The notes under the pieces were generated by a model, which was not told the origin of the DNA, searched no databases, and worked only from the letters and a program-made list of their open reading frames with translations. Positions 12,955 through 41,637 of a DNA stretch of 64,000 nucleotides are shown here, in pieces. A program made the position numbers and the translations under genes. The stretch lies in NCBI GenBank assembly GCA_023144005.1, contig JAGLGN010000014.1, forward strand, positions 29,984 to 93,983, given 5' to 3'. The number at the start of each line of letters is the position of its first letter. Position 1 is the first letter of the stretch. The DNA is from a bacterium (lineage in GTDB: Bacteria > AUK180).

Positions 12955-12961
12955 TTTTGGT

Positions 12962-13975: not shown

Positions 13976-13980
13976 GAGAG

Positions 13981-14009
13981 ATTATAACCTAAATCACTTG
14001 AAGAATCAA
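13981..14009 (-). promoter_or_regulatory. sigma70-type promoter, probably leaderless
   Basis: TTGATT-17-TATAAT, then 5 nt to ATG 13975. Confidence 0.65.
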
Positions 14010-14078
14010 TTTCACAATTGATACTATAACAATCCGGATTTTTGCATCCGATCCACTTTCGTACTCTACATTCAAATA

Positions 14079-17859: not shown

Positions 17860-17865
17860 GGCAAT

Positions 17866-17894
17866 AATATATCAAATTATTTGCCATTATCCAA
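17866..17894 (-). promoter_or_regulatory. Extended -10 promoter, probably leaderless
   Basis: TGa-TATATT, then 6 nt to ATG 17859; weak -35 TTGGAT. Confidence 0.5.
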
Positions 17895-27406: not shown

Positions 27407-30307
27407 TCAGAATTCATGTTGAAGATCCGCGATCTCCATATCGCCAGAGGAATTGCCGGAGGTAAATCTCAGTAATTTGCCGTCACATATCTTATATCTT
27501 ACATAACCCACTGAGAGATCATAGAAGTTGGTGCCGGCCTTATCCTTCAGATAACTAAAATCCTTCTGGAATTGAGCTAACTCCTTGCCCTTGTTGAAAT
27601 AATCTATATGAAAAAGCATGTCCATGGGCAATGCGAGATTCAGCATATCCTTGAGTTTGTAGTTATACAGGAAGCGTGTGGGCATAAGGACCACATCGAC
27701 CTTATCGAAATACTGCTTGTATGACATCAGTTTATCCACTTCCCCCCTGTCCAGATCAGCGGCTAATAAAAACTGTTTTCTTGAGATCTCAATACCCTTT
27801 TTCTTCAAGATATAGTCCGCTTTGAGTACCATATTATCCTGAAAATAGTCCTCTTTGTCGCTGCTTTCCGGGTAGATAGCATATATCTCAAACACATATT
27901 CACTATTCCCCACCTTCTTACTCTCTCTTAGAATATAATCACCCGCCTTTACCACGACATGGGGTATTTTGCTGGACATTAGGGTGTTGCTTACCTTCTG
28001 ACACGTTTCATATCTGCTTTTTACCCAATAAGCCTGGCCTCTTTCCAGTAAATACTCATTATCAGTAGATTTCAAGAAATCTTCATAGCTAGATGCGGAT
28101 GCTTTTTGCACATCTGTGGGAATATAGACCTTCCCCACGGGGTATTCCCTCAGTATTGTGGTAACCGCCGAGTTATTATCCTGAGAATAATCCGTCAGGA
28201 TCAGATCGTCTATACGGTTGATACCGTAAGACATCAAAATGCTCATGACCACACGGTCGGCCTCGTCCCACTCCCTTCTGTTATAGAGAGAATGCTTACC
28301 TGCATTTATCAGCACATTTCTTCCCGAAGGCGTTTTGATGAAAACGACATTGCCCTTTGAAAGGGAAAAGAAGGTTATATCAACTTCATTATCCCTTTTT
28401 GTGGGTATCAGCAGAAGTATGGAGCCCAGCAGGACAATAGCGATTATGATCGCGGGCAGAAACTTAAATATACGCGCCCTCTTATCATGTTTCTGTTTGA
28501 ATACCGTCAATTTATATTTATAGTCAAGCCACTTACTTTTGATATACGGAAGATTGATAATGATAAGCAGCGCCACAAAATAGAATATCAGCCCGCCGAA
28601 GGTGAACTTCTTCACATACGGATATGGGAAAGTGGTCGAAAAGAAATGCGCGGACTGTATAAAGAGCTTCAACAGCAGATAATTAGCGGCATTGATGAAC
28701 AGTCCCATATATATCCCTACAACGGGTATCAGAGACAGAATTGCCGCGATCATCCCCAATTGGACATTGATGCCGATGAGGGGTATGGCGATGTAATTGG
28801 CGTACATACCCGCAATTGGATATCTGCCAAAATAATATGCGGAAAGCGGGATCATCATTCCCAGCTGTATCGCAAATTGTGCCGATATGAAGGATATCAG
28901 CCAAGGCGGCATCTTTCTGTAGGATGGAGCGGCAAGCTGCTTTTTTTCCTCAAATTTATTGGATAAATACAAAAACACCCCGGAAGCGGCAAAAAATCCC
29001 CACAGAAACAGTGAATTAAAGAAATAGCTCTTGAAGATGATGATAAGCGCGGTGAAGGAGGCGAAAACAAAGCAAGCCGCCCAAAAGGTATATCCGATCA
29101 GATACTTCTTGAAAATATCATCCAGAAACGGCGTGATAAGGACAAGTGATAGCACCGCCCCAAACGATAGAGTAAAGGATGCTTCTCTCAATAGAAGCGG
29201 GTTCACAAATAATATCATAAGAGCGGCAACGGAAATACCCACCTCGATCGAGGTTCGCAGCCCCTTGCCGGAAAGAACCCATGCCATCAGCACGGCGCTA
29301 TTCATTATTACGGCCCGCAAAGTGGATGGCCGTCCGCCGGTGATTATCGCGAATATCACTAAAAAGAGTATCGTAATAATTGCATAAACTCTTCTGGGAA
29401 CCCCTATCAGTGAGAATATCCCGACAAAGAATATCATAAGGATCGTAACATGAAGCCCCGACACGGCCAGTACATGATTCACACCCGCCCTTTTGAACTC
29501 ATCCTTTATCTGATATCGGGCATCAGGCAGGAAGATCCCGTCCATGCCGTATCTCAACCCCAGGGTAATACCGCCTAAAAATGCCGACTCCGGGTATTTC
29601 ACCGTTCTTCGAATGGTTTTCAGGAATTTCTGTTTGATACCCAATGAGAAGGCGACAAAAGGATTCTTCTTCGTCAGCTCATCGGGGGTGATGCGCGACG
29701 CATCCTTGAAATACGCAGTATAATATACTCCGGTGCTTTCCAGAAATTTTCTATAATCAAAGCCGCCCGGATTCGTTGCTTTCTGCGGCCTCTTCAAGTC
29801 CGTTTCAAAAGTGATATAGTGCCCGTATGAGAGAAATTCCGGGAATTTCCCCTTCTTGAATGAATAATTAAGAAGTATCTTGCCCTTTTTCACTTCTTTC
29901 GAACGGGCGCCGTTAACTGAGATCTTCAGGGGCTTGACATATACCCGCATCCGATTTTCAAAATACTCGGGTTCTCTGTACACATAACCTTCGACCGTTG
30001 CGGATATTTTGTCTTCTCCTCCGGTAACGGTCAGTATATGCCCTTTTCTATCGATATTCAGAGCATTGTGTGTAAAAGCCAATCCCAACACAAAGGGCAA
30101 AAGGTAAAAGGCCATCAGCATAGGTATCTTCTTGATATACCCCCAGCGCTTATAAGAATAAAACCCCACTGCGATAGCCGCGAGAAGAACGACGGCAGAA
30201 AGGATGAAAAGAAAAAACGGAGAGGCCAGAGGGAAGACACCGAAACTGATGAGTATGCCGAGGACAAAGAACAATGTAAAGAGGTAGAGTTTATTTTCCC
30301 AATACAT
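27407..30307 (-). CDS. comEC: ComEC/Rec2 DNA uptake channel (DUF4131/OB + Competence + degenerate MBL domain)
   Basis: NPGGFDYRKFL, HVLAVSGLHV, GGRPSTLRAVIM, SFTLSF motifs; the C-terminal MBL-like region lacks HxHxDH. Confidence 0.95.
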   Translation of the reverse strand: MYWENKLYLFTLFFVLGILISFGVFPLASPFFLFILSAVVLLAAIAVGFYSYKRWGYIKKIPMLMAFYLLPFVLGLAFTHNALNIDRKGHILTVTGGEDKISATVEGYVYREPEYFENRMRVYVKPLKISVNGARSKEVKKGKILLNYSFKKGKFPEFLSYGHYITFETDLKRPQKATNPGGFDYRKFLESTGVYYTAYFKDASRITPDELTKKNPFVAFSLGIKQKFLKTIRRTVKYPESAFLGGITLGLRYGMDGIFLPDARYQIKDEFKRAGVNHVLAVSGLHVTILMIFFVGIFSLIGVPRRVYAIITILFLVIFAIITGGRPSTLRAVIMNSAVLMAWVLSGKGLRTSIEVGISVAALMILFVNPLLLREASFTLSFGAVLSLVLITPFLDDIFKKYLIGYTFWAACFVFASFTALIIIFKSYFFNSLFLWGFFAASGVFLYLSNKFEEKKQLAAPSYRKMPPWLISFISAQFAIQLGMMIPLSAYYFGRYPIAGMYANYIAIPLIGINVQLGMIAAILSLIPVVGIYMGLFINAANYLLLKLFIQSAHFFSTTFPYPYVKKFTFGGLIFYFVALLIIINLPYIKSKWLDYKYKLTVFKQKHDKRARIFKFLPAIIIAIVLLGSILLLIPTKRDNEVDITFFSLSKGNVVFIKTPSGRNVLINAGKHSLYNRREWDEADRVVMSILMSYGINRIDDLILTDYSQDNNSAVTTILREYPVGKVYIPTDVQKASASSYEDFLKSTDNEYLLERGQAYWVKSRYETCQKVSNTLMSSKIPHVVVKAGDYILRESKKVGNSEYVFEIYAIYPESSDKEDYFQDNMVLKADYILKKKGIEISRKQFLLAADLDRGEVDKLMSYKQYFDKVDVVLMPTRFLYNYKLKDMLNLALPMDMLFHIDYFNKGKELAQFQKDFSYLKDKAGTNFYDLSVGYVRYKICDGKLLRFTSGNSSGDMEIADLQHEF

Positions 30308-30456
30308 TATTTTTCTTCCAAAAACCCGTAATACGATTCATTGGACCTGAGATTTCCCTCGATCGTATAATTCTTATCAAAGGCCAGAACCAGGATCGCG
30401 GCAATCGCAATGATAATTATTCCTATTAAAATAAAGGTCTTCTTTCCTTTTTTCAT
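30307..30456 (-). CDS. Unannotated 49-aa single-pass membrane protein
   Basis: Hand translation MKKGKKTFILIGIIIIAIAAILVLAFDKNYTIEGNLRSNESYYGFLEEK*; TAATG overlaps at both ends. Confidence 0.75.
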   Translation of the reverse strand: MKKGKKTFILIGIIIIAIAAILVLAFDKNYTIEGNLRSNESYYGFLEEK

Positions 30457-32447
30457 TAACTTCTCCAGTCAAGATAGAATTTGAAAGCCCTCTGCGGAAC
30501 CGTATTATCAGCCCTTGCCGAATTGTCCTGAATATAATACCTTCTTTTGTACCCTATTTTCAGCTTCAGATTCTTTCTCCAGAGGTTTTTGCTGTAATCA
30601 ACAGACCACTCCCGGTATTCCTCTGAGGTGGATGAGTCCGACTTCCTGTAAATATTATTGTCCGTGGATTTAAATGAGAACAGGAATGTACCCAGAGCGG
30701 GTTTCCAGTTCGCCTTCAGCTGATAGGATGCGTTGGCCTTTCTCTGAGGCAGTGAATGTTCCATATAGGTATTGAAGCGGTAAACGCCTGTCAGGCGTAA
30801 TTTCTCGGATAGATTGTAATTAAAAGTCACATAAGTCCTGGTGCTTTTGTCCGATTCGGAATAATCCGTAATATATGAATCATTCAAGTCCCTTGCCAGA
30901 TCGTTATCTTTGTACCGCTGCGTCACCGCCATATCAACGAGCGGTGTTATAGGATATTGAAATTTTACCGAGCCGTCGAAATTGGTCTGAAGGGTTGAAT
31001 AATATCTCCAGATATCCGCTTTGGGAGTGATCTCTAATTTCCCCAATTTTAAAAGCGCATCGAATTTAATGCCCCTTTCGTTCTGGGCGGAAAGCTCCGC
31101 AGGAGATTCATATGTAGCGAATGTATATGAGTAGGGATTTTCAAATTCCCTGTGGAAATCCCTGTAAATAAAATTGATCCGCGCGGTTTTCTTTTTCATG
31201 GTCATCTTCAATAAGAAGCCGTGAGCGCCGGATTCCAATTGCCCGAATTCCGCCTGAATAGCCGATTTTTTAAAAGGAGTCCACCGCATATTCAATCCCC
31301 ATACCCATGCATCGAACATGTCTTCAGAGTAATTATTCGGCTTGTAGAGATCAGAGGCATAGATCTCCTTATTATGATAAACGGTCATTCCGATAAAATT
31401 GTCCTCTCCGCCGATTCGCATATGTCCGCCGAAAATGGTCTTGTTGACATAATTCGGAATGGAAAGAGCGATCGTGTCTTCGTCGAAATCGGTCTCTGAA
31501 TACGCCGATTCATCCGCGCTGAAATCAGCCGAACTGACCAGAAGATGCGAATACTGATAGAGCTTGTCCTGTATCTGTGACGCGAAGATGAAAATCTCCG
31601 CCGGTCCCAGCACCGTTCGCATGCCGGCACCCAGGAGATTCAGATTAAAATCGGAAGTAACATCACTTGAACGGTCTCCTTTGAAGCCGTAGAGATTTTT
31701 GTTATCGGATTCATTAAAGACCACGCCAAGGCCGAAGCCCGCCATGTAATTTCCCGTGATCAATTGGAAGTTCTTTGTATTCCAATTTATAAATACCTTA
31801 GGCAGGGGCCATATTGTTTTCTTCGGGTCAACTATCACTTCGCCGGGCTGAAGGAAGATCTCGCCGTTTTCATCATAGGTAACAGGCCCGTCATATTCCT
31901 CAAAGCTGTATGTAGCGTATCTGCGTTCCTGAAGAATTCCTATATCCAATACCTTTCCGAGGCGGAAGCGGTACTTGAACTGTACATAGGGCGTTTCTTC
32001 CGATTTGGTCGTGGAAGAGACCTCGTCCCGGAATTTAAAGTTGAGGTCCGTTTTCCTTTTCAATACCTTCTTACCCTTGACCTTCTTTATCTTGACTGGA
32101 GGAATGATACGCATAAATCCCTCAACAAAACTGAAGTCGGTACGCCCAAGGATCTTTTTGAGCGGCTTGTCATCTTTAAATGGCCGGTTCTTGATGATCT
32201 CATTAGCGATCTCAAGGTTTACCTTGGGAAGCCGTAACAGCTCGCTCTTGGGAGCGCTATTGACCTCTATCGGATTTGAGAAGAGTTCCCAAAGCATAAT
32301 ATACTGCTCTTGATCGATATCTCCGGACTCGTAGAGATCCGCGATCTCGTCTTCCGTAGATATGGGTATCGAAAGATCATAATCCTGAGCAAATGCAAAA
32401 GAGGCCAAAAACAAAACGATCAGAAATAGTATTCTACCTTTCATCAT
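30456..32447 (-). CDS. Helix-hairpin-helix domain + predicted outer-membrane beta-barrel protein
   Basis: Signal peptide; IEVNSAPKSELLRLPKV...IIKNRPF (ComEA-like HhH); long amphipathic-strand region ending FYLDWRS. Confidence 0.75.
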   Translation of the reverse strand: MMKGRILFLIVLFLASFAFAQDYDLSIPISTEDEIADLYESGDIDQEQYIMLWELFSNPIEVNSAPKSELLRLPKVNLEIANEIIKNRPFKDDKPLKKILGRTDFSFVEGFMRIIPPVKIKKVKGKKVLKRKTDLNFKFRDEVSSTTKSEETPYVQFKYRFRLGKVLDIGILQERRYATYSFEEYDGPVTYDENGEIFLQPGEVIVDPKKTIWPLPKVFINWNTKNFQLITGNYMAGFGLGVVFNESDNKNLYGFKGDRSSDVTSDFNLNLLGAGMRTVLGPAEIFIFASQIQDKLYQYSHLLVSSADFSADESAYSETDFDEDTIALSIPNYVNKTIFGGHMRIGGEDNFIGMTVYHNKEIYASDLYKPNNYSEDMFDAWVWGLNMRWTPFKKSAIQAEFGQLESGAHGFLLKMTMKKKTARINFIYRDFHREFENPYSYTFATYESPAELSAQNERGIKFDALLKLGKLEITPKADIWRYYSTLQTNFDGSVKFQYPITPLVDMAVTQRYKDNDLARDLNDSYITDYSESDKSTRTYVTFNYNLSEKLRLTGVYRFNTYMEHSLPQRKANASYQLKANWKPALGTFLFSFKSTDNNIYRKSDSSTSEEYREWSVDYSKNLWRKNLKLKIGYKRRYYIQDNSARADNTVPQRAFKFYLDWRS

Positions 32448-33922
32448 TCACCTCCCTGTCCATTGTCAACAGCTGGATCGTATTCTCCCGTTTTTATCAT
32501 ATTTCTCATATTCTCAAAGGTCTTGGGGCCTATTCTGGGAACATTCATAATATCCTCTATGTTCTTAAATCCGCCGTTTTGCTTCCTGTAGGAAAGAATG
32601 TTCGCCGCTGTCTTCACTCCTACGCGCGGAAGTTTCTGCAGCTCCGCACTGTCCGCGGAGTTGATATCTATTAGCGGTCCGCTGTAAGAGGTCTTCGAGG
32701 CGGTGGAAGTGGACGAGGAACTGCGTGACGGTACAATTTGAGACGATGACTCATATTTACTGCCAACGGTAATATAGGACCGTATTTTTTCAACGGTCTT
32801 AGCGCCGATCCTGGAGACATTCTGCAGGTCTTCCACTCTTCTGAACGGCCCGTTCACCTTCCGGTATTCCACTATACGCTCTGCCGTCTTACTGCCGATA
32901 CCCGGGATCGCGGATAGCTCCTCCGCATTTGCGAGGTTAATATTTATCCTGCCGTTGATCACCGAGAGTTCGGGTTTGGATTCTTTGTTTCCGAGTCCAA
33001 AGGCAAAGGTATGTGTGGCGCCCAGCTCCGGATGTACCTTCAAGGCGTATGAAACCGCCATACCGCCACCGTAAATACCGAGACCGGCAGAATAGGAAAG
33101 ACGCTCCGAGTGAAGATATTCAATGCCGCCGAATAGAGCAAAGTTATCCGTCATATCATACTTGATGCCAAAATGATATTCGGAATAGAGGTCCCGTTTA
33201 GCCGCGAAATTTTCCAGATATGCGTCATAGTCGGCAAAATCACCGACCGCCTCTTCTATCTCCGCTTCCTCGGCGTCGGTATAGCTCCCGAGTCCGTAAG
33301 TATGTTTCAGAAACGATGCGGGAATATTTGCGATCAAATTGAAATAAATATTCAATTGTACAAATGGCGTATATGATACCCCTATGCCGACATCCCTCGC
33401 CATGTATTCCTGGCCGATATACGGCGCCGAAACATTTCTGAATCTTGCTCCGAAATAAAGTTCCTGATTTACAAAAAGCACCATTCCCATATCCAGGGCA
33501 AGTGTGGATGCCGAACCGATCTCATCGATAACGACACTCATATATTTCCCTTTGAAGCCAAGTGCGAAATTAGAGCCCACATTAAAGGCGCCGGCGAATT
33601 GTATCTGCTGCTCCGCATACAGCCATGAGCCGAATTTTATAAGGTTCAGGCCCATTGTCATGGAACCGAAGCGCTTAATATAATTTGCTGAGGTATTTGC
33701 GAGCTCATCCATGCCGTAGAGCCGGGATGTGGTAAAATTCAAATGGACATTCTCCAGATAGGCCAGCATGGCGGGATTATTGTATATCGCCTCCGGGCCC
33801 ATAAGGACCAGATTTGCTCCGCCGGTAGCGAGGTTCAGGGGCATATTCCCCTCAAATTCAAAGGCAGTCCATCCATTGGCGGCCAGAATGATCGCGCAAA
33901 CTACTATTATTATTTTTTTCAT
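32444..33922 (-). CDS. PorV/PorQ-like beta-barrel fused to two ComEA-type HhH DNA-binding domains
   Basis: ATGGA...AIYNNPA barrel start; ININLANAEELSAIPGIGSKTAERIVEYR and IDINSADSAELQKLPRVGVKTAANILSYR, joined by a Ser/Thr linker. Confidence 0.88.
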   Translation of the reverse strand: MKKIIIVVCAIILAANGWTAFEFEGNMPLNLATGGANLVLMGPEAIYNNPAMLAYLENVHLNFTTSRLYGMDELANTSANYIKRFGSMTMGLNLIKFGSWLYAEQQIQFAGAFNVGSNFALGFKGKYMSVVIDEIGSASTLALDMGMVLFVNQELYFGARFRNVSAPYIGQEYMARDVGIGVSYTPFVQLNIYFNLIANIPASFLKHTYGLGSYTDAEEAEIEEAVGDFADYDAYLENFAAKRDLYSEYHFGIKYDMTDNFALFGGIEYLHSERLSYSAGLGIYGGGMAVSYALKVHPELGATHTFAFGLGNKESKPELSVINGRININLANAEELSAIPGIGSKTAERIVEYRKVNGPFRRVEDLQNVSRIGAKTVEKIRSYITVGSKYESSSQIVPSRSSSSTSTASKTSYSGPLIDINSADSAELQKLPRVGVKTAANILSYRKQNGGFKNIEDIMNVPRIGPKTFENMRNMIKTGEYDPAVDNGQGGE

Positions 33923-33931: not shown

Positions 33932-36900
33932 CTACATCCTTTTCCCAATGGCAACGACTTCTTTCTTATAAATAGATTTCGTTTCATTTCTCAATTCGAT
34001 GTATAGAATATATACACCCATGGGCAGCGGTCGGTTACGGTTATCGTCGCCGATCCATTTCACAGAGAAAGGCCCCGGCGGAAGAACTGTCTTTTCCGAT
34101 AATGTTTTTACTTCTCTTCCGGCAACATCATATACGCGCACTGTAAGCACTCCCTCGGAAACAACATGCAGGGAGATCTCGGTATATAATCTGTTCGGAT
34201 CGCTGCCGTCATTAACAAAGCTCCTCGGGGAGATCTCGATCTGCGTAATATTGCCTGCGGGGATCTCCGTTTCATCGCAAGGTCTTCCCATCGTGGGTTC
34301 TTCCGTGATCGTCCAATCGGCAAGCGTGTTCGTATCTGTAAATTCCGCATCACGCGTTATAGATGATTCTTCATCCACATTATTTGATCTGATGGCATTG
34401 GTGGCGGCATAGATCCAATCGTAAATATATCCGCTGTCCGGCTGCTCGCCAAGAGGATAATCGGGGTATTTCGCCATATTGGGGAAGAATTTGTATATCT
34501 CTCCGTCCCAATGATATGCTCCTAATTTGGGATCGGATGAAAAATATACCTCATAGAAATCGCTGTATTCAATATAAGAGATATCTATCAATTCTGAAAC
34601 GACCCATGTCGACGCGGCGGGAACCACCTGTCCGTCAGCTATAAGATCACCGTTCTCGTCAAAGGGGAATATCTGTTCTTCTGAGTTTCTTTCAGCCCAT
34701 ACAACGGCATCTTTGATATTTCCGGAAAAATCCCGAAGCTCAAGATTTTCATCCGTGCTGGAAAGTGAAAGTTTTGAAAGATAGACCGTTAATATGCCGT
34801 CACTTCCCGCGGTAAGTTCGCTGTCGCTTTCATTTCCTACGGTGATAATGACAAATTCTCCTGTTTTCAAGGTCGTTCCAGGCTGAATTATCGCGACTAC
34901 ACTGTCCGTCAGCATGAAACAGCCCCCGACATCTACGCCTGCCCCGGAATTGCCGTCATCCTTGCAATAAAGCTCTATCCAATCCGGAAATCCAGAAGGT
35001 GAGTAAAAGTAAACCTCTGATATCACGATATCCGTTTCGGCGGGCAAGGTATCGATCGGATGGCCGTAACCCGGCGTAACGACCAGTGTATTCTTCCAGT
35101 CAACTTTATCATTGGTATCCGTATTGAAGTAATCCCTGACAATGGAGCCCTTTGAAAAATCAGAAGAGACACAGTCGATCTCTTCGCCGTCAACGGGAGA
35201 GCCGTAGCCTATATTCCATTGGCCGACAGCAAAGGCTTCTTCAAAATCATCGTCGGACAGTGAACCGCCCTGATCCGCCCAGCAGACAAGGTCTATCAAT
35301 TCGCCGTTCGGCGTAAATATACCCATTTGTTCGTCCGAATCGGTTATTCCTGTATCGGCGGTCGTCACAAAATATGATGCCTTGGTTAGAGGAAGCTCCC
35401 AGTCATCAGCATTATCATATATTAACAATCCGTAATCGCCGGTACGGAAAATACCGGTTGAAAGCTTTTTATCGGCACTTGCATCCAGGTCCGTAATGGA
35501 GGCGCGGGTGCCGTAGGTGGATATCGAATCAAGGTCATCTATATAAAAACCCCCAAGATCGATACCGTTTCCATTATTACCGTCATCTATCATATAAAAT
35601 TCAACAAAATCCTCGCCGTATGTCCCGATAGAATCTACTTCGGTAATGAGTATCACCGGGTCTTTTACCGTTATTGACTCGAAATAATCCGAAACGGAAT
35701 TACCGGTATCCGAGATCGCATTTGCCTTTTGATCAGCGCCCGTGACCCAGAAACCTATGACCGAAAGATTGGGAATATCCACGGTGGAGCCTTTGGTAAG
35801 GTCAGCTCCGCCTTTATAGACTAAGGAATTTCCCCATATAATGCCGTCTTCGCTGCCGTCCGCGCCGGAGCTGTAGACAAGTGTTACCGTACCGGTATCA
35901 ACAAATACTCCCGTGGAGGTCTTGATCTCATACCATAAACTCAAAGTAGATGTATCTTCAATACCACCCTCTTCTGAAAGCATCAACTCAAATGATGTTG
36001 CTGAAAGAGAAACACGGGGGAAATCGCCCGAAGGGGACATAGAAAGAGGAGCAGGGCCGGTAATATCGATCGGCAAGACCGTTAGGTCCGCGGAAACAAT
36101 GCCGTCCACTCCTGTATTTTCCGGTGTTATTTCAATAACTCCCGGAGATAGGCATCCGCCGAAATCAACCGTGCCCTCGCCATTGATCAGGGTCAGCGCG
36201 ATCGTGTCGGTGCCTCCCGAAAATTGGCCGGTTCCGGTGGGAGAAGCAGATAGCGTAATATCCAATGTCGGAGACGAGGTATAAACAGAGTAATTCTCAT
36301 CAAGAAGCTTAACCGTGACCGTCGTGGTCTCCGGCGCACCTCCGAAAACTTCTATTCTGGTGGGATATACGAAAGCACGGAGATTGATAGAGGCCTCGGT
36401 AGGCCCGACCGAATTTGGGTGACGGGGCGTACCGTAGATCGGATTACCCAGATAATCAGTGCCGTATATGGTAATTAGGTCATTATCCGCCCAATTTGAA
36501 GAATCGTTGCCGTCCTTTCCGAGAATGATCTTTTCCATGGAAACACCGCCCGATTGGCCGGCGAACCATCCATCAGAACAGTCCACTTGATCAATGAGAT
36601 TAGCGGAGCTATCATACAAACGGAGGTTTTCTCCGTCATTTGAAAGTTTACTGTAGCCAAGATCTTCCGAATCACTTCCGATATCGGCGATCGCCTGTTT
36701 TACCGGCTCAGTAGTGCTTCTGTATTCTATCAGATAATATGCTCCTGATCCGATAGTGGTCGTATTGGCAGTGGTAAGGTCAACAATTATTCCCCCGCTA
36801 TCCCAAATATACCATCCGGTAAGATCGATATCGGAACCCGTGGGATTGTAAAGCTCGATCCATTCATACCCGCTCTGGGCAATGGTACCGCTCCATGAAA

Positions 36901-36994
36901 GTTCTGAAATAACAACATCGCCGCTTGAAGCGGAATGTATAGCAAGGGGCAGTATTAAAAGGACTATCAAGAATGTTAGTATTTTTTTCATCAT
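33932..36994 (-). CDS. Secreted protein with three lamin-tail domains and a FlgD/CHU-like C-terminal domain
   Basis: VVISE...EWIELYN, LITEV...DFVEFY, IVISEV...DWIELY; C-terminal VYDVAGREVK...W.G...LPMGVYI. Confidence 0.85.
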   Translation of the reverse strand: MMKKILTFLIVLLILPLAIHSASSGDVVISELSWSGTIAQSGYEWIELYNPTGSDIDLTGWYIWDSGGIIVDLTTANTTTIGSGAYYLIEYRSTTEPVKQAIADIGSDSEDLGYSKLSNDGENLRLYDSSANLIDQVDCSDGWFAGQSGGVSMEKIILGKDGNDSSNWADNDLITIYGTDYLGNPIYGTPRHPNSVGPTEASINLRAFVYPTRIEVFGGAPETTTVTVKLLDENYSVYTSSPTLDITLSASPTGTGQFSGGTDTIALTLINGEGTVDFGGCLSPGVIEITPENTGVDGIVSADLTVLPIDITGPAPLSMSPSGDFPRVSLSATSFELMLSEEGGIEDTSTLSLWYEIKTSTGVFVDTGTVTLVYSSGADGSEDGIIWGNSLVYKGGADLTKGSTVDIPNLSVIGFWVTGADQKANAISDTGNSVSDYFESITVKDPVILITEVDSIGTYGEDFVEFYMIDDGNNGNGIDLGGFYIDDLDSISTYGTRASITDLDASADKKLSTGIFRTGDYGLLIYDNADDWELPLTKASYFVTTADTGITDSDEQMGIFTPNGELIDLVCWADQGGSLSDDDFEEAFAVGQWNIGYGSPVDGEEIDCVSSDFSKGSIVRDYFNTDTNDKVDWKNTLVVTPGYGHPIDTLPAETDIVISEVYFYSPSGFPDWIELYCKDDGNSGAGVDVGGCFMLTDSVVAIIQPGTTLKTGEFVIITVGNESDSELTAGSDGILTVYLSKLSLSSTDENLELRDFSGNIKDAVVWAERNSEEQIFPFDENGDLIADGQVVPAASTWVVSELIDISYIEYSDFYEVYFSSDPKLGAYHWDGEIYKFFPNMAKYPDYPLGEQPDSGYIYDWIYAATNAIRSNNVDEESSITRDAEFTDTNTLADWTITEEPTMGRPCDETEIPAGNITQIEISPRSFVNDGSDPNRLYTEISLHVVSEGVLTVRVYDVAGREVKTLSEKTVLPPGPFSVKWIGDDNRNRPLPMGVYILYIELRNETKSIYKKEVVAIGKRM

Positions 36995-37000: not shown

Positions 37001-37885
37001 CTACCACCGATACCCAAGACCGGCAGATACCGTACCCGGCAATAGCGAGCCGAACCCGTATGAGACATCAAGCTCCAACTTGTTCAATCCGATCTGAGTG
37101 CCGAAAAGAATATTTCTTGTGGTGTCATTCAATATGTCGCTGGCGCCGAATCTCAATCTTATCCCTTTGTTGATATTAAAAGCTAAGCCCGAATTCAATA
37201 TCATTGAAGATTCTCTGATGACCGCCTGCGTTAAAAGCGTCATCGCCGCGCCCGCATCACCCATTGTCCATTTATACCGGAAACCGAGGCCGCCGGATAT
37301 AGCAGGGAACGCACCTTCTTGTTCAAATTCCAGCTTCGTGCCCCAATTATTTACAAAAAGCCCTATTAGAAGCTTTTTCATCTTAAAAGCGAGGCCGAGG
37401 TCAACTAAAAATGAATCCGCGGTATATGTATCGATGCGGCTGAAAAGGTATTTTATATTTACACCGGCATAAGTGTTCTGACCGATGGCATCTCCGAAAG
37501 AAAGCACAAGGCCAAGATCGGAAGAGTGAAATTGTCCGGTAACCGTGCCTATCTCGTCCCGGGAATCCTGATATCCCCAATTGCCGTAAATGGTGGAAAT
37601 GCCGACATTGCCGAAATTCTCAAGATATACGGCAGTCGATATCAGAGAGACATCCATCTCCTCATAATATTTTCTATAGCTTGTTTTAAAATAATTCCAG
37701 CCCGAGATCGGCATCAATGCCGGATTGACCAGCATAGAACCGAAATCATCAATATCAACGCCTAGGACGGAACCGCTGCCGCGTGCTCCCGAAGTCGGGT
37801 CAATATTAAAGACATTGGAAGAGCCCATTGCGGCAATGCAAACCGAGATCAAGAGAGCCATTATGAATATTACAGATCTCTTCAT
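37001..37885 (-). CDS. PorV/PorQ-like outer-membrane beta-barrel
   Basis: Signal peptide; SGARGSG...MLVNPA; C-terminal SAGLGYRW. Confidence 0.8.
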   Translation of the reverse strand: MKRSVIFIMALLISVCIAAMGSSNVFNIDPTSGARGSGSVLGVDIDDFGSMLVNPALMPISGWNYFKTSYRKYYEEMDVSLISTAVYLENFGNVGISTIYGNWGYQDSRDEIGTVTGQFHSSDLGLVLSFGDAIGQNTYAGVNIKYLFSRIDTYTADSFLVDLGLAFKMKKLLIGLFVNNWGTKLEFEQEGAFPAISGGLGFRYKWTMGDAGAAMTLLTQAVIRESSMILNSGLAFNINKGIRLRFGASDILNDTTRNILFGTQIGLNKLELDVSYGFGSLLPGTVSAGLGYRW

Positions 37886-37888: not shown

Positions 37889-40800
37889 CTACCTCACCAC
37901 CGAAAACTTGACCATCGCGGTAAAACTATCCGCCTTTACCAGGCCGAAATATATACCCGCGGGGATCTTTCTCCCATATCTGTCCTTCAGGTCCCAAGTT
38001 ATCTGATGGAATCCCGCGGATAGCACGGCATCGTGTATCTCTACCACCTTTCTCGCATCCAATGTCAAAATGGTCAGCGTTACATTGGATTCTTCCAGTA
38101 TGTTTATCTCGAATGTTATCGTGTCAACATCCGGAGTTGCCGGATTCGGATATGGGGTATATATATTATTCCCGTCAAATGAAGTGTCAATGAAATACTC
38201 CAGCAGATCAACGCAGGTGAATTCCACTATATGCTTTCCCGCCTCGGTGGACAGGGTCAATGTAAATGATGCCGAACCATCTGTGCCGGTAAGGGCGGAA
38301 GAAGGAGCGATAGATGCACCCAGGGGAGTGTCAATAAGCGAGGTCGCGACATCCGCTCCATACAATCCCAAGCCGGTATCAGAAGTGATATATACCAAGA
38401 TTTCTCGATCCTTCCCAGGGGCGGTGTGCGGGTCTTCCGCGGGGTCAAATGTCATTACAGCGGGAGAAAGGACATCAAATTCAGGCGAATTCAGCTCAAC
38501 AAGATCAGTACCATTCTCTAAAATACTTATCCCGAATTCATATACACCTTCCGCATCAGGGAAATTATAACTATTGAAATCTATGCTCACCGAGCTTGCC
38601 GCGGTAATGCCGGCAATGGTTATGGTAGAGCCGGAAACCGTATAGGCAACCGTATTGGAAGCATCAACGGTTACTGTCAGATTTGCTAATGTTGGTTGAG
38701 TAAAGCTTGAATGAACAACGATATACAGATCATCGTCCCCATCCAGCTTGGGATATCCTACCGTATAATCAATACCAAGATCTCCATTGCCGCCCTGGCA
38801 AAGTGGGACATTTGGGGTTTTTGAAATACCATAAGAGCCGGAAACCGCAGAGTCCACATTACCGAAAGGCGAGGAATTTCCCGACTCATCAAGGGCTTTC
38901 ACTGAAATATAATATGTCGTGCCGGCAGGCAGCATTGTCAGTATATGCTCCTCAGCCTGAGCCGGCAGAAGCGGTGTTATACCTGAAGTATCGTACTTAT
39001 CCGAGGCGATGAAGTCCGCGTCATCAGTGATCGGGGCGGTGGAATAAGCGATCTCATAGCTATCGCATTGAGATACGCCCAGCCCGTTCTCGCCCACCGC
39101 GGTAAAGTTAATTCTGATCCCGCCGATAGTGGGATGGGAATATGCGGCAAAATCATTGATCACCGAGGGCGGGCGATTATCGATGGTGTTGAAAGAAAAG
39201 AGGTAGTCGCCGCCGGGAGCGCCGTCATCGTCTCCGTCAAGGCCGTTGCCTGAAATATCCATAGCTCCGGAGTAAACGGTAATATCATATGAAGTATCTT
39301 CCGAAAGCGGAGCCGTAAGGGTCATCGTCAATGTCTCATTTCCGGCATCCCAGGAAAGCGTATATGCTACAGCCGGGATTATCTCAAGCGATAAATCCAC
39401 CGATACGGTATTCATTTCCTCTGAGAATGTGATAACAATATCGGTCGCTGTATCTATATTCACTCCCGAATCGATCGGAGATGTGTATAGAACGGTCGGT
39501 GAGGCATAATCTCCACAGCTTGTACTGTAATTTGAGTTTTCAGCACCGGGTGTGGCATTAAGAGGATTATTGTCGGCATCAAGGCCGTTTATTGTAATTC
39601 CGTCATTGGAGCCCCAGTTACCGGCGACCGAGCCGCCGACACATGGGTCAATTCTCTCCATTGAATAATAAGCGGGTGAGCCGGTACCGCCGAACCATCC
39701 GGCGCCACAATCGACCAGATCAACTGTCACATCGGATGAATTCTTTAAAGTTATCGTCGCGCCGGTGTTACTCAAGCTGAGAGATGTATCCACAAATCCG
39801 CCCGCAACATCATTCACGGTATCCTCGGAATTTTCAATAAGATAATATCCGAAAGCGGGAATAGTTCCCGAAAGTGTTTCTAAAATAAACCCGACTCCCT
39901 GAACATACCATCCCGTAAGGTCGATCCCCTCACCGGTCGGGTTGTATAACTCTATCCACTCATCGGAAGAAGAATGAAGTGTGCCACCGAAGGCAACTTC
40001 ATTTACAACAACCTTTCCGGTCATTGACTCATATACTTCGATCGATGGAGAAGCTCCGATCGCTGAAAGCGTACCCGTACCTTTCGATCTTACGGTAAAG
40101 GCATATGTTCCAAGTGTGTCGCACATAGCGCCGGGCGAACCCAATGACATATCTCCATAAATAAATATCAGCGTATTTCCGGTATCAAGCGTAGTAATAT
40201 CCGCTATTATCTCCCAACCGGTGGTCTCATTTCCTGTAATAGACGCGATCGAGGCCACGGCATCACCGGAAAGGGAAAGATACCCTTCTGATGCCGGAGC
40301 GCCGTCCTGCGGCTGTGACCAGTTCGCGGGAATATATAGCGAGACCTGCCCGCCCGCCATATCAAGCGATGCGGTATAGATCACATTTACACTCTGATGA
40401 TTATCCTTGAGAATATTAGAGGGATATGCGACCGCTGTACCGGTGCCGTCACCATATTGCGATGTCTGAAAATTGAAGGTATATGTATCTCCGCCCGAAT
40501 CATCCACTGAGGCGGAATCAGCCAGCGTATTGCCCGCTACATCCGCAACTACGGTCTTATCGATCTCAATATAATATGTCGTTCCGAATGACAGCGTATT
40601 ATGTGTGATCGTAAGTGTCTGTGTAGTATTTGACCATGTATATCCTTCTCCTCCGGGGGAGGGTGATATAATTATCCCCAAAGTGGAGGTATCCGCCATT
40701 TCCTCATCAAAATCAATCGTAATATCCTGAATCGGATTGACCGCGGAAGCGCCGTTGACCGGGGCCGTCGCGGTTATAGTCGGGGGTGTGGTATCCGCCG

Positions 40801-41413
40801 CTGCGCCGCCGCAGGTTGAGACTTCAACTGAATTGGGCTGTCCTGGAGTTCCATTGATAGAGGGCTCGCCGTTTATAGTGATCCCGTCATTTGTCGCCCA
40901 GTTAGAGCAAACATCGCCGGGCGAACACGGATCGATCCTCTCCATCGAATAAAAACCCGCGGCTACACCTGCGCACCAGACCCCTGAATTGTCATCAGCC
41001 GTATCTATCACATTACCGGTACCGTCCTGACCGTCGTATAAGATGATACTGTCTCCACCTACATTCATTCCAATTGTAGCGTCCCAGATCTCAATGGTAG
41101 CTCCCGAAGTGAATACTACAGCATCATTTGCATATATCAGATAGCCCTTGGCGGGAATAATAGTGGTATTATTTCCATCGGCAGCAGAAATATTCAGGAC
41201 AACCCCGGTATCGGCACCATAAATTGACCAGGCGGCTATATCGATCGGAGCATCTGTGGTATTATAGAGCTCTATCCACTCATCACTTGTCGAGCCGGAT
41301 GTACCCGCCCATGCGATCTCATTGATAACAACATCACCGGGAGTCGCAGCTTCCACGATCTGCATAGATGTCAAAAGCAAGGCAGCAATAAATATGATCG
41401 TTAATTTCTTCAT
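37889..41413 (-). CDS. Secreted protein with 2 lamin-tail, 2 SbsA Ig-like (Big_5), FN3 and FlgD/T9SS-like C-terminal domains
   Basis: VVINEI...DEWIELYN x2; DTTPPT...ITIDFDEEM and SPTVLYTSP...ITFSEEM; TTYYISVKALDESGN; PYPNP...WDLKD..G...GIYF...KFSVVR. Confidence 0.85.
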   Translation of the reverse strand: MKKLTIIFIAALLLTSMQIVEAATPGDVVINEIAWAGTSGSTSDEWIELYNTTDAPIDIAAWSIYGADTGVVLNISAADGNNTTIIPAKGYLIYANDAVVFTSGATIEIWDATIGMNVGGDSIILYDGQDGTGNVIDTADDNSGVWCAGVAAGFYSMERIDPCSPGDVCSNWATNDGITINGEPSINGTPGQPNSVEVSTCGGAAADTTPPTITATAPVNGASAVNPIQDITIDFDEEMADTSTLGIIISPSPGGEGYTWSNTTQTLTITHNTLSFGTTYYIEIDKTVVADVAGNTLADSASVDDSGGDTYTFNFQTSQYGDGTGTAVAYPSNILKDNHQSVNVIYTASLDMAGGQVSLYIPANWSQPQDGAPASEGYLSLSGDAVASIASITGNETTGWEIIADITTLDTGNTLIFIYGDMSLGSPGAMCDTLGTYAFTVRSKGTGTLSAIGASPSIEVYESMTGKVVVNEVAFGGTLHSSSDEWIELYNPTGEGIDLTGWYVQGVGFILETLSGTIPAFGYYLIENSEDTVNDVAGGFVDTSLSLSNTGATITLKNSSDVTVDLVDCGAGWFGGTGSPAYYSMERIDPCVGGSVAGNWGSNDGITINGLDADNNPLNATPGAENSNYSTSCGDYASPTVLYTSPIDSGVNIDTATDIVITFSEEMNTVSVDLSLEIIPAVAYTLSWDAGNETLTMTLTAPLSEDTSYDITVYSGAMDISGNGLDGDDDGAPGGDYLFSFNTIDNRPPSVINDFAAYSHPTIGGIRINFTAVGENGLGVSQCDSYEIAYSTAPITDDADFIASDKYDTSGITPLLPAQAEEHILTMLPAGTTYYISVKALDESGNSSPFGNVDSAVSGSYGISKTPNVPLCQGGNGDLGIDYTVGYPKLDGDDDLYIVVHSSFTQPTLANLTVTVDASNTVAYTVSGSTITIAGITAASSVSIDFNSYNFPDAEGVYEFGISILENGTDLVELNSPEFDVLSPAVMTFDPAEDPHTAPGKDREILVYITSDTGLGLYGADVATSLIDTPLGASIAPSSALTGTDGSASFTLTLSTEAGKHIVEFTCVDLLEYFIDTSFDGNNIYTPYPNPATPDVDTITFEINILEESNVTLTILTLDARKVVEIHDAVLSAGFHQITWDLKDRYGRKIPAGIYFGLVKADSFTAMVKFSVVR

Positions 41414-41637
41414 ATATTTCCTCTCGAACCCTCATTGAGTTCATCTTTTATTTTTTTCATTTTCTCCAGACGGGCCTTCGTCTCGTCCGCGTCAATGGAA
41501 ATGTCAACATTCAGAACATCTCCTTCCTTCACCCCTTGCGGAAGATGCGCGATGGGGATGAGCATTTCTCCGCCGCGGTCAAGGACCACAACGGCAAGCT
41601 CTTCTTCAAATCTGTCTATAACTGCTGTGAGAATCAT
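41410..41637 (-). CDS. DUF3006 family protein
   Basis: AVIDRFEEELAVV...LPQGVKEGDVL...DETKARL; GGAGG RBS. Confidence 0.85.
   Translation of the reverse strand: MILTAVIDRFEEELAVVVLDRGGEMLIPIAHLPQGVKEGDVLNVDISIDADETKARLEKMKKIKDELNEGSRGNI

What the first reader, a model, noticed from the sequence alone, without database searches (positions are those of the whole stretch)
32444..33922. PorV-like barrel fused to two tandem ComEA DNA-binding domains
Seen: a barrel domain, then two complete ComEA HhH units (about 32485-32950) with intact GIGxKTA/GVKTA motifs and a Ser/Thr linker, plus an acidic helical insertion in the barrel. Known: ComEA is normally free in the periplasm or anchored in the inner membrane. 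Inference: an OM-tethered ComEA that links a T9SS-type cargo receptor to a DNA ratchet. I know of no described example.
Basis: partly seen in the sequence, partly recalled or inferred. Interest (0 to 1): 0.82.

Follow-up and report, generated by a model that had tools for sequence, protein, structure and literature searches.

The report
Outer-membrane-anchored ComEA in DNA-uptake operon
An uncultured bacterium fuses a PorV-type outer-membrane barrel to two ComEA DNA-binding domains, in a conserved operon with surface lamin-tail proteins, a second DNA-binding barrel and the ComEC DNA channel, which suggests an undescribed way of pulling DNA across the outer membrane.

Summary

The barrel itself misses the PorV/PorQ model. 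A 37%-identical orthologue passes the model's cut-off.

The fusion is not an assembly artefact. It recurs in at least 23 clusters at 50% identity, including Elusimicrobiota. Databases name it only generically, and I found no paper describing it.

The gene sits in a tightly packed, conserved operon: DUF3006; a lamin-tail protein with a T9SS-type C-terminal domain; a PorQ-like barrel; a second such lamin-tail protein; this fusion; an HhH-plus-large-barrel protein; a 49-aa membrane protein; and ComEC. In distant relatives the trio of CTD protein, fusion and HhH-barrel persists.

Best reading: an outer-membrane DNA-capture and uptake module. The barrel would hold a surface protein by its C-terminal domain, and its periplasmic ComEA tail would ratchet incoming DNA towards ComEC. 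All functional steps are inferred.

Verdict: new variant of a known kind, possibly part of a new uptake machine. Interest 0.72.

The parts
32444..33922 (-). The finding: 492-aa fusion protein, a PorV/PorQ-family outer-membrane barrel followed by two ComEA HhH units
   Evidence: Intact ORF. Pfam and NCBIfam hits. AlphaFold2 model. Foldseek best matches to the PorV-sized F chains of 8gl6 and 6h3i. Orthologues P0002-P0007.
33863..33922 (-). Signal peptide (residues 1-20, MKKIIIVVCAIILAANGWTA). The mature N-terminus begins FE, which is invariant or nearly so across the wider family.
   Evidence: Sequence. F21 invariant and E22 nearly invariant in alignment A3. The cleavage site is inferred, not predicted with a tool.
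32987..33862 (-). Barrel domain (residues 21-312): an N-terminal segment with a degenerate PorV motif (ATGGANLVL...YNNPAML) and 14 beta-strands (residues 60-310)
   Evidence: DSSP on the AlphaFold2 model. Foldseek. Orthologue P0007 scores 94 bits on NF033709 against a cut-off of 90.
33182..33322 (-). Acidic helical insertion (residues 201-247) between strands 9 and 10, so inferred to be extracellular loop 5. Present only in the narrow clade.
   Evidence: 11 Asp/Glu of 47, pI 4.1. Helices 216-225 and 229-240 at low pLDDT. Distant family members match the barrel profile in two pieces that skip profile positions about 200-245. Conserved Y232, Y235, L236, N238, F239.
32753..32968 (-). ComEA unit 1 (residues 319-390), pI 10.0
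   Evidence: PF12836 best stretch 324-385. TIGR00426 stretch 325-386. Match to ComEA structure 8dss at E 1e-14.
32675..32752 (-). Ser/Thr-rich flexible linker (residues 391-416)
   Evidence: 15 Ser/Thr of 26. pLDDT 29-33.
32483..32674 (-). ComEA unit 2 (residues 417-480), pI 9.6, 50% identical to unit 1
   Evidence: Second HHH_3 / TIGR00426 stretch. BLASTP of unit 1 against unit 2, E 3e-21.
33932..36994 (-). Upstream partner: 1020-aa secreted lamin-tail-domain (LTD) protein with a T9SS-type C-terminal domain. Proposed surface DNA receptor held by the barrel.
   Evidence: LTD 85 bits. The C-terminal 102 aa hit the PorU C-terminus (E 3e-5) and TIGR04183 at 20.1 bits, just under its cut-off of 23. 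This C-terminal domain is conserved in upstream genes of distant loci L085 and L086.
37001..37885 (-). 294-aa PorQ/PorV-family barrel without ComEA domains
   Evidence: T9SS_PorQ E 6e-23. PorV_fam 77.8 bits, below its cut-off of 90. Orthologues in L001 and L004 behave the same way.
37889..41413 (-). 1174-aa LTD / Big_5 surface protein with a T9SS type A C-terminal domain
   Evidence: LTD 100 bits and Big_5 94.6 bits. The C-terminal 103 aa score 25.2 bits on TIGR04183, above its cut-off of 23, and also hit the PorU and PorZ C-termini.
41410..41637 (-). First gene of the operon: 75-aa DUF3006 protein with weak S1/OB-like similarity
   Evidence: PF11213 at 74 bits; S1_2 at E 7e-4. Conserved at the same position in L001, L005 and L008.
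30456..32447 (-). Downstream partner: 663-aa protein with a signal peptide, an acidic helix, one ComEA-like HhH, a basic linker and a large beta-barrel. Proposed outer-membrane DNA conduit.
   Evidence: HHH_3 at 29.1 bits on the isolated N-terminus, above the cut-off of 27. AlphaFold2 model of about 22-26 strands at low confidence, pLDDT 52.7. Foldseek gives only generic large barrels with low TM-scores. An HHH_3-containing large-protein gene follows the fusion gene in all loci where contig sequence continues. Its start overlaps the fusion's stop by 4 nt.
30307..30456 (-). 49-aa ORF with one hydrophobic helix, between the barrel gene and comEC
   Evidence: ORF. Orthologues of 48-50 aa at the same position in L001, L002, L003 and L004, 48-58% identical in L001, L002, L004 and L007.
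27407..30307 (-). ComEC/Rec2 inner-membrane DNA channel (966 aa) with a divergent C-terminal domain
   Evidence: Competence 132.7 bits and DUF4131 86 bits. TIGR00361 E 8e-47. Adjacent in all narrow-clade loci long enough to show it.

Best explanation
The protein is an outer-membrane (OM) anchored ComEA.

What the sequence and models show:
- A Sec signal peptide directs it to the periplasm.
- A 14-strand PorV/PorQ-family barrel inserts in the OM.
- Two basic ComEA HhH domains follow the last strand. They hang into the periplasm on a short tether and a flexible Ser/Thr linker, in the way OmpA carries its periplasmic C-terminal domain.

The protein is one part of a conserved OM module whose genes are translationally coupled. 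The proposed steps are all inferred:
1. The upstream lamin-tail protein carries a T9SS-type C-terminal domain. It is displayed on the cell surface, held by the extracellular face of the PorV-like barrel in the way PorU is held by PorV and PorZ by PorQ, and it captures extracellular DNA.
2. The downstream protein, one HhH plus a large barrel, provides the route for DNA through the OM.
3. The three ComEA-type HhH modules hung under the OM bind DNA as it emerges and prevent back-sliding, acting as a Brownian ratchet like the one proposed for soluble ComEA in Vibrio cholerae.
4. DNA is handed to ComEC, encoded two genes downstream, for import into the cytoplasm.

The domain architecture, family relationships, gene order and their conservation are shown. 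DNA binding, orientation in the membrane, the barrel-CTD contact, the conduit role of the large barrel and the fate of the DNA (transformation or food) are inferred.
For: Tandem ComEA domains:
- They score well above family cut-offs and match solved ComEA structures.
- Both are basic.

Barrel:
- 14-strand model with PorV-sized chains of the SprA-PorV complex as best structural match.
- Orthologue P0007 passes the PorV/PorQ family cut-off.
- The barrel profile retrieves PF19572 PorV proteins.

Orientation:
- The strand number is even.
- The only long loops (13, 47 and 5 residues) are at odd-to-even strand junctions, and even-to-odd turns are 2-4 residues.
- This is the usual OM-protein pattern with both termini in the periplasm (established knowledge of OM barrels and of the FadL/PorV fold).

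Operon:
- Stop and start codons overlap or are within 10 nt from LTD2 through ComEC.
- The order is identical in L001/L006, L002, L004, L005, L007, L008, L009 and L003/L010, down to 32-37% identity.
- In distant relatives (24-29% barrel identity; Elusimicrobiota by the NCBI names) the trio persists: CTD protein (LTD or NTTRR-F1), fusion, HHH_3 large protein.

C-terminal domains and published precedents:
- The C-terminal domains of both LTD proteins hit the T9SS CTD, PorU and PorZ C-terminal models.
- PorU:PorV and PorZ:PorQ anchoring is shown experimentally (PMC5562754).
- So is binding of type B CTD proteins to cognate PorP-like barrels (PMC9143113).
- Riemerella and the Bacteroides Ddb loci give a precedent for OM DNA uptake by a barrel plus a surface DNA binder without a described pilus (PMC8459023; bioRxiv 10.1101/2025.03.18.642099).
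Against: - There is no experiment on any member.
- The window's own barrel does not reach any PorV/PorQ model, and its N-terminal motif is degenerate.
- The model of the large barrel is of low confidence (pLDDT 52.7), and it matches only generic barrels.
- A DNA-binding role for LTD domains is not established (PMC6085458).
- ComEC is adjacent only in the narrow clade. In L084 a pilin and a prepilin peptidase follow the pair, so a pilus may still be needed.
- Whether the genome has T9SS core genes to export the CTD proteins could not be checked. None is evident among the window ORFs I scanned.
- No nuclease is encoded in the operon, and ComEC's C-terminal domain lacks the metal-binding histidines.
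Confidence: 0.55

Rival explanations
1. The machine is the same but its purpose differs. The module scavenges extracellular DNA as a nutrient (phosphorus, nitrogen, carbon) rather than for genetic transformation, as proposed for the Bacteroides Ddb loci that derive from a transformation system.
For: Ddb loci related to the Riemerella transformation genes serve DNA catabolism. LTD domains recur in extracellular nucleases and in DNA-degradation loci of sediment bacteria. The relatives come from environmental metagenome assemblies.
Against: No nuclease, nucleotidase or nucleoside transporter is encoded in the operon. The adjacent importer is ComEC, the transformation channel. The window cannot show whether DprA, ComF or RecA partners exist.
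Confidence: 0.2
2. The ComEA domains face outwards. The protein would then be a surface adhesin that binds extracellular DNA, for example for biofilm matrix attachment, and its linkage to ComEC would be indirect.
For: The orientation has not been measured. The neighbouring LTD proteins are surface-type proteins.
Against: The 14-strand even topology and the loop/turn length pattern put the C-terminus on the same side as the N-terminus, which is periplasmic in the known OM barrels of this fold. The next protein carries its HhH at the N-terminus of its barrel, again the periplasmic end. Exporting a folded C-terminal domain through its own 14-strand barrel has no precedent in this fold (own knowledge).
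Confidence: 0.08
3. The locus is a small T9SS-like secretion and attachment system for the two LTD proteins. The large barrel would be the translocon and the PorV/PorQ-like barrels the shuttles or anchors. The HhH domains would serve a structural or regulatory role, as in the T2SS pseudopilin GspK, rather than ratcheting DNA.
For: There are two pairs of a CTD protein and a PorV/PorQ-like barrel in a row. PorV docks on the SprA translocon barrel in the structures that best match the model. HHH_3-type folds also occur in GspK (weak T2SSK hits).
Against: The HhH units match ComEA far better than GspK: 124 bits against 29.9 bits. They keep the Gly-Ile-Gly-x-Lys hairpins and a basic charge in both units across the family. 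ComEC and DUF3006 are embedded in the same operon. The large barrel shows no specific similarity to SprA; that hit is rank 47 with TMq 0.22 and TMt 0.09.
Confidence: 0.12
4. The fusion is an artefact: a mis-assembly or a lost stop codon joining two genes.
For: None found.
Against: The same uninterrupted architecture occurs in orthologues from independent assemblies and in at least 22 further clusters at 50% identity.
Confidence: 0.01

Closest known systems
ComEA (competence DNA receptor; V. cholerae ComEA, Bacillus/Geobacillus ComEA structures 8dss and 8dfk, Thermus 2duy)
   Same: It has the same HhH DNA-binding domain with scores well above family cut-offs. It is genetically linked to ComEC. 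It presumably sits between the cell surface and the inner-membrane channel.
   Different: Known ComEA proteins are soluble in the periplasm or anchored in the cytoplasmic membrane by an N-terminal helix (PMC8459023 introduction; own knowledge). Here two units are fused to the C-terminus of an OM barrel. The full-length comE model TIGR01259 is not reached: 127 bits against a cut-off of 152.
[quoted passage not shown]
   Same: It has the same 14-strand FadL-like fold, and the PorV-sized chains of the SprA-PorV complex are its best structural match. An orthologue passes the family model. It is encoded next to a protein with a T9SS-type C-terminal domain, like PorU:PorV and PorZ:PorQ (PMC5562754).
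   Different: It is not an orthologue of PorV or PorQ proper: the equivalog models are missed by a wide margin. It carries a C-terminal periplasmic DNA-binding tail and, in this clade, an acidic helical loop. The lineage is not Bacteroidota, and the presence of T9SS core components is unknown.
PorP/SprF-like barrels that anchor type B CTD proteins (PorP-PG1035, SprF-SprB)
   Same: The gene-pair logic is the same: a CTD-bearing surface protein is encoded next to its own small OM barrel, which holds it on the surface (PMC9143113). One related contig even carries a PorP_SprF + HHH_3 fusion (L086 966-2426).
   Different: It belongs to a different barrel sub-family. No DNA-related domains are known in PorP or SprF.
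Riemerella anatipestifer RA0C_RS04915/04920 and Bacteroides DdbC/DdbD outer-membrane DNA uptake
   Same: The proposed logic is the same: a surface DNA binder, an OM barrel and a periplasmic HhH protein feeding ComEC, with no pilus genes identified.
   Different: The proteins are unrelated. Those systems use a TonB-dependent-transporter-like barrel with a carboxypeptidase-regulatory domain and a DUF5689 binder. None of these families is found in this operon.
OmpA architecture (N-terminal barrel plus C-terminal periplasmic domain)
   Same: An OM barrel is followed by a folded periplasmic domain on a flexible linker, so the barrel's closing strand is internal to the chain (own knowledge; topology).
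   Different: OmpA has 8 strands and a peptidoglycan-binding domain. Here there are 14 strands and DNA-binding domains.

Membership tests
ComEA HhH domain family (PF12836 HHH_3 / TIGR00426) | Match to the family model above the curated cut-off | tested here: met
   PF12836 at 156.4 bits (cut-off 27), two stretches. TIGR00426 at 124.3 bits (cut-off 53.1), two stretches.
ComEA HhH domain family (PF12836 HHH_3 / TIGR00426) | Sequence similarity to ComEA proteins of solved structure | tested here: met
   8dss E 1e-14, 8dfk E 3e-13, 2duy E 1e-8.
ComEA HhH domain family (PF12836 HHH_3 / TIGR00426) | Sequence-independent binding of double-stranded DNA | not testable with these tools
   Only indirect evidence: both units are basic (pI 10.0 and 9.6) with conserved Gly-x-Gly-x-Lys-Thr hairpins.
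ComEA HhH domain family (PF12836 HHH_3 / TIGR00426) | Genetic association with ComEC | tested here: met
   comEC lies two genes downstream in the same strand run. The arrangement is conserved in the narrow clade but not in the distant loci L084 and L087.
Full-length comEA protein (TIGR01259 subfamily) | Whole-protein score above the cut-off of 152.35 | tested here: not met
   127.1 bits. Only the C-terminal HhH part of the model (positions 59-120) is matched.
PorV/PorQ family (NF033709; Pfam PF19572) | Match to the family model above the cut-off (90 bits) | tested here: inconclusive
   The window barrel gets no hit even at E <= 10. Orthologue P0007 (37% identical, E 3e-78 to the window protein) scores 94 bits over profile positions 6-324 of 326. 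NCBI names a relative 'PorV/PorQ family protein'. The family barrel profile retrieves PF19572 proteins.
PorV/PorQ family (NF033709; Pfam PF19572) | 14-strand FadL-like outer-membrane barrel | tested here: met
   AlphaFold2 model with 14 strands, barrel pLDDT about 70-83. The best Foldseek hits are the 345-367-residue F chains of the SprA-PorV entries 8gl6 and 6h3i, then FadL and TodX.
PorV/PorQ family (NF033709; Pfam PF19572) | N-terminal G-x-G-G-A ... D-D ... N-P-A-G-L motif | tested here: inconclusive
   Degenerate in the window protein (ATGGANLVLMGPEAIYNNPAML). Canonical in P0007, P0025 and the wider family.
PorV/PorQ family (NF033709; Pfam PF19572) | Binds the C-terminal domain of a T9SS-type protein | not testable with these tools
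   Only context: the upstream gene ends in a domain that hits the PorU C-terminus (E 3e-5) and TIGR04183 (20.1 bits, cut-off 23). No multimer prediction was available.
T9SS PorV proper (NF033710 equivalog) / PorQ proper (NF033711) | Equivalog score (250 / 220 bits) and membership of a genome with T9SS core genes | tested here: not met
   There is no hit for the window protein. P0007 scores only 21.9 and 36.7 bits. T9SS core genes were not seen among the window ORFs scanned. The rest of the genome was not searched.
Riemerella / Ddb-type outer-membrane DNA uptake (DdbC-DdbD) | TonB-dependent-transporter-like barrel with a carboxypeptidase-regulatory domain, plus a DUF5689 surface binder | tested here: not met
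   No such Pfam or NCBIfam families occur in any gene of the operon.
Type IV pilus / secretin DNA uptake | PilQ secretin and pilus genes associated with the uptake genes | tested here: inconclusive
   None is present in this operon or among the window ORFs scanned. A pilin and a prepilin peptidase follow the gene pair in the distant locus L084. Genome-wide presence was not tested.

The most novel reading that the evidence does not exclude
The operon encodes a previously undescribed outer-membrane DNA-uptake machine assembled from type IX secretion parts. Surface lamin-tail receptors would be held through their CTDs by PorV/PorQ-like barrels. A dedicated HhH-bearing large barrel would act as the DNA conduit. 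OM-tethered ComEA ratchets would feed ComEC. This would be a third solution to crossing the outer membrane, besides type IV pilus/secretin systems and the TonB-dependent-like Riemerella/Ddb system. It is present in candidate phyla such as Mcinerneyibacteriota-like lineages and Elusimicrobiota.
Probability: 0.35. Interest if true: 0.88.

Novelty: new variant of a known kind. Interest (0 to 1): 0.72.

Why it matters
How transforming DNA crosses the outer membrane is understood only for type IV pilus/secretin systems and the Helicobacter ComB system. For Bacteroidota a different barrel-based route has only recently been proposed.

A ComEA that is physically built into an outer-membrane barrel, next to a second HhH-bearing barrel and ComEC, would place the ratchet exactly where DNA enters. 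It also gives a compact set of genes (four to eight) that can be tested by heterologous expression.

It would further show that the T9SS cargo-anchoring logic, a CTD protein plus a PorV/PorQ-like barrel, has been reused outside protein secretion.

Finally, the lineages that carry it are uncultured. The module is therefore a marker for predicting competence or DNA foraging from metagenomes.

Tried and rejected
- **Direct family scans of the window barrel (residues 1-318).** These gave nothing in NCBIfam and only a sub-threshold FadL/TodX hit in Pfam. The assignment had to go through an orthologue, the fold search and a profile.
- **Word-indexed homology search with the whole protein.** This found only seven full-length relatives and undercounts the family. 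The exhaustive profile search was needed.
- **Word-indexed search with a barrel-only profile.** This returned plain PorV/PorQ proteins and did not recover most known fusions, so it is no use as a census.
- **Other outer-membrane barrels fused to ComEA.** I scanned ten long ComEA-containing hits. All were poly-ComEA proteins or ComEC-type metallo-beta-lactamase + ComEA fusions, not barrels.
- **Fold search of the 663-aa neighbour.** This gave only generic large barrels (TonB-dependent transporters, MtrB, SlpA, ushers, LptD) at TM-scores of about 0.2-0.35. No family is assigned.
- **Promoter and terminator scan of the operon.** Matches were no more frequent than in shuffled sequence.
- **tRNA and Rfam scans.** These found one tRNA-Leu and gave no taxonomic help.
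- **Fusion artefact.** Considered and rejected because of conservation across independent assemblies.
- **Membership of the Riemerella/Ddb system.** Considered and rejected because none of its defining families is present.

Full report
**The observation.** The minus-strand ORF 32444-33922 is intact and encodes 492 aa. Its C-terminal third holds two complete ComEA-type helix-hairpin-helix (HhH) units. Pfam HHH_3 scores 156.4 bits against a cut-off of 27, and NCBIfam TIGR00426 scores 124.3 bits against 53.1, each in two stretches. They are 50% identical to each other and basic, with pI 10.0 and 9.6. They align to solved ComEA structures 8dss, 8dfk and 2duy. A 26-residue linker with 15 Ser/Thr separates them.

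**The barrel.** The N-terminal two thirds gave no family hit when scanned directly; the only match was FadL/TodX at E 0.012. An AlphaFold2 model built on seven orthologues shows 14 strands between residues 60 and 310, with barrel pLDDT about 70-83. Its best matches in the PDB are the 345-367-residue F chains of the Flavobacterium SprA-PorV translocon entries (8gl6_F at E 7e-11, 6h3i_F at E 6e-10), which I take to be PorV by size and complex composition. FadL, TodX and OmpG follow. The most divergent orthologue, P0007, is 37% identical (E 3e-78 to the window protein). It keeps the canonical ARGMGNAF...DD...NPAGL motif and scores 94 bits on the NCBIfam PorV/PorQ family model over its whole length, above the cut-off of 90. 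A profile of barrels from the wider family retrieves proteins annotated PF19572 and named 'PorV/PorQ family protein'.

**The acidic insertion.** It is real: residues 201-247 hold 11 Asp/Glu of 47, with pI 4.1 and two predicted helices. The segment is modelled with low confidence.

**Topology.** The model has an even number of strands. The only long connections lie at the odd-to-even junctions: 13 residues between strands 7 and 8, 47 between 9 and 10, and 5 between 11 and 12. All even-to-odd connections are 2-4 residues. This is the standard outer-membrane pattern of long external loops and tight periplasmic turns, with both chain ends in the periplasm, and it is the known arrangement of the FadL/PorV fold (established knowledge). 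It follows, by inference, that the ComEA tandem is periplasmic and starts only about 10 residues after the last strand. The acidic insertion would then be extracellular loop 5. The design resembles OmpA, a barrel followed by a periplasmic domain.

**How widespread it is.** The word-indexed search found only seven full-length relatives. A scan of one genome per GTDB species found full-length matches in six species only. All are unclassified MAGs except one labelled Candidatus Mcinerneyibacteriota; L005 is 97% identical to the window. The exhaustive profile search of 1.84 billion representatives, split afterwards into barrel and ComEA profiles, gave a wider picture. Among the best 150 hits, 22 further clusters at 50% identity carry the barrel followed by ComEA units. 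[quoted passage not shown] These distant members match the barrel profile in two pieces that skip positions about 200-245. The acidic helical loop is therefore a speciality of the narrow clade to which the window belongs. The fusion is a real, recurrent and generically annotated architecture.

**Context.** The gene lies in a run of eight minus-strand genes, and from the second lamin-tail gene through comEC the stops and starts overlap or lie within 10 nt. In order of transcription they are:
- 41410-41637: a 75-aa DUF3006 protein.
- 37889-41413: a 1174-aa lamin-tail (LTD) / Big_5 protein.
- 37001-37885: a 294-aa protein with no Pfam hit, which NCBIfam places in the PorQ/PorV family (PorQ E 6e-23).
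- 33932-36994: a 1020-aa LTD protein.
- 32444-33922: the fusion.
- 30456-32447: a 663-aa protein with one HHH_3 unit near its N-terminus (29.1 bits when scanned alone).
- 30307-30456: a 49-aa protein with one hydrophobic helix.
- 27407-30307: ComEC, with DUF4131 and Competence domains.

**C-terminal domains of the LTD proteins.** Both LTD proteins end in about 100 residues that hit T9SS C-terminal-domain models. The first scores 25.2 bits on TIGR04183, above its cut-off of 23, and also hits the C-termini of PorU and PorZ. The second scores 20.1 bits on TIGR04183 and hits the PorU C-terminus at E 3e-5. The locus therefore contains two consecutive pairs of a CTD-bearing surface protein followed by a PorV/PorQ-like barrel, and the second barrel carries the ComEA tail.

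**The 663-aa neighbour.** It is modelled with low confidence (pLDDT 52.7) as N-terminal helices plus a barrel of roughly 22-26 strands. Fold search gives only generic large barrels.

**Conservation of the context.** tblastn of the eight window proteins against all fetched loci shows the same order in every narrow-clade contig long enough to show it. That includes L009, where the barrel is 32% and ComEC 37% identical. In four contexts from the wider family the core is kept:
- L087/L088 have an LTD + FlgD_ig protein, a small protease-like gene, the fusion, then an 801-aa HHH_3 protein.
- L085 has an NTTRR-F1 protein with a PorU-like C-terminus, the fusion, then a 693-aa HHH_3 protein.
- L084 has a PorV-family barrel, an NTTRR-F1 CTD protein, the fusion, then a 775-aa HHH_3 protein whose barrel part still matches the window neighbour's profile.
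- L086 has an LTD + FlgD_ig protein, an Avd-like gene and the fusion, then a transposase-like gene before a large protein with the same acidic-HhH N-terminus.

ComEC is adjacent only in the narrow clade.

**Mechanism.** The best-supported reading is an outer-membrane DNA-capture and uptake module.
- *Shown:* the architecture, the family relationships, the operon and its conservation.
- *From published work:* PorU and PorZ are held on the cell surface by PorV and PorQ (PMC5562754). Type B CTD proteins bind their cognate PorP-like barrels, which are encoded next to them (PMC9143113). ComEA is the periplasmic DNA binder that pulls DNA inwards and hands it to ComEC (introduction of PMC8459023). 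Some Bacteroidota take up DNA through a dedicated barrel plus a surface DNA binder, with no pilus identified (PMC8459023; bioRxiv 10.1101/2025.03.18.642099).
- *Inferred:* the LTD protein is displayed on the surface and held through its C-terminal domain by the barrel. It binds DNA. The HhH-bearing large barrel is the conduit. Three ComEA-type modules, tethered directly under the outer membrane, act as the ratchet. ComEC imports the DNA.

**Weak points.**
- The role of LTD domains is unresolved (PMC6085458).
- The model of the large barrel is poor.
- A pilin and a prepilin peptidase follow the pair in L084, so independence from a pilus is not established.
- Whether the genome has the T9SS core needed to export the CTD proteins is unknown.
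- No nuclease is encoded, and ComEC's C-terminal domain lacks the HxHxDH histidines in all five orthologues examined.

**Rivals.**
- *Same machine, used for DNA foraging rather than transformation (0.2).* This fits the environmental sources and the Ddb precedent, but the operon has no nuclease or nucleoside-handling genes.
- *Outward-facing eDNA adhesin (0.08).* This conflicts with the topology.
- *T9SS-like secretion and attachment system in which the HhH units are structural (0.12).* This fits the two CTD/barrel pairs. It does not explain why the HhH units are ComEA-like (124 bits against 30 bits for GspK) or why ComEC is embedded in the operon.
- *Fusion artefact.* This is excluded by conservation.

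**Comparison with known systems.** The C-terminal part is a member of the ComEA HhH family; it is not the full-length comE subfamily, since TIGR01259 gives 127 bits against a cut-off of 152. The N-terminal part belongs to the PorV/PorQ family by fold and through its orthologues. It is not an orthologue of PorV or PorQ proper, and the window sequence itself does not reach the family model. The system works like the Riemerella/Ddb route but shares none of its defining proteins. No paper in the held library mentions ComEA together with PorV, or describes a barrel-fused ComEA.

**Verdict.** The gene context adds considerably to it. I rate it a new variant of a known kind: an outer-membrane-anchored ComEA. 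There is a substantial chance (about 0.35) that the whole module is a new type of outer-membrane DNA-uptake machine built from T9SS-type parts. Interest 0.72.

Noticed in passing
window 27407-28390 (ComEC residues about 640-966): The C-terminal domain of ComEC gives no Lactamase_B hit even at E <= 10. Where the metallo-beta-lactamase HxHxDH motif is expected (from memory of the canonical motif), all five orthologues read TD(Y/L)S(Q/D/R)(D/E)N. The nuclease domain therefore looks catalytically dead.
   Followed up: partly
window 37001-37885 and 37889-41413: A second pair of the same kind lies upstream. A 294-aa PorQ/PorV-family barrel (no Pfam hit; PorQ E 6e-23) follows a 1174-aa LTD/Big_5 protein whose C-terminus passes the T9SS type A CTD model (25.2 bits against a cut-off of 23).
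   Followed up: partly
window 30307-30456: A 49-aa ORF with a single hydrophobic helix lies between the HhH-barrel gene and comEC. ORFs of 48-50 aa hold the same position in L001, L002, L003 and L004, and those in L001, L002, L004 and L007 are 48-58% identical to it. Its function is unknown.
   Followed up: partly
L086 966-2426: A different outer-membrane barrel is fused to ComEA on a related contig: PorP_SprF (42 bits) plus a TPR plus one HHH_3 unit, 486 aa, with a PorV-like N-terminal motif.
   Followed up: no
L084 8430-9806: In a distant member's locus, a type IV pilin-like gene (N_methyl) and a prepilin peptidase directly follow the fusion / HhH-barrel pair. This hints that a pilus or pseudopilus may cooperate with the module in some lineages.
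   Followed up: no
L086 5488-5808 and L084 1721-1966: Small genes with 23S_rRNA_IVP / Avd-like domains, the accessory protein type of diversity-generating retroelements, sit just upstream of the fusion gene in two unrelated contigs. In L086 the gene lies between the LTD protein and the fusion.
   Followed up: no
L084 3235-4173 and L085 6217-7200: In the wider family the upstream CTD partner can carry an NTTRR-F1 domain instead of lamin-tail domains, while keeping the PorU-like C-terminal domain.
   Followed up: no
window 41410-41637: The DUF3006 protein that opens the operon has a weak S1/OB-fold-like match (S1_2, E 7e-4), which would fit a nucleic-acid-binding role.
   Followed up: no
window 8649-18896: A run of large minus-strand ORFs (1127, 558, 703 and 339 aa), and a 685-aa ORF at 1473-3530, have no Pfam family at E <= 1e-5. 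They lie next to a Wzy_C-type (O-antigen ligase-like) 841-aa protein and a spermine-synthase-like membrane protein.
   Followed up: no
proteins P0113 and P0049: Another ComEA fusion type appeared among the top hits: a ComEC-type metallo-beta-lactamase domain followed by three ComEA units (538 and 568 aa).
   Followed up: no
cluster members P0014 and P0177: Fragments or copies of family members are deposited under 'Hyphomicrobiaceae bacterium' and 'Thermoplasmata archaeon'. These are probably binning errors on contigs of 1-4 kb.
   Followed up: no
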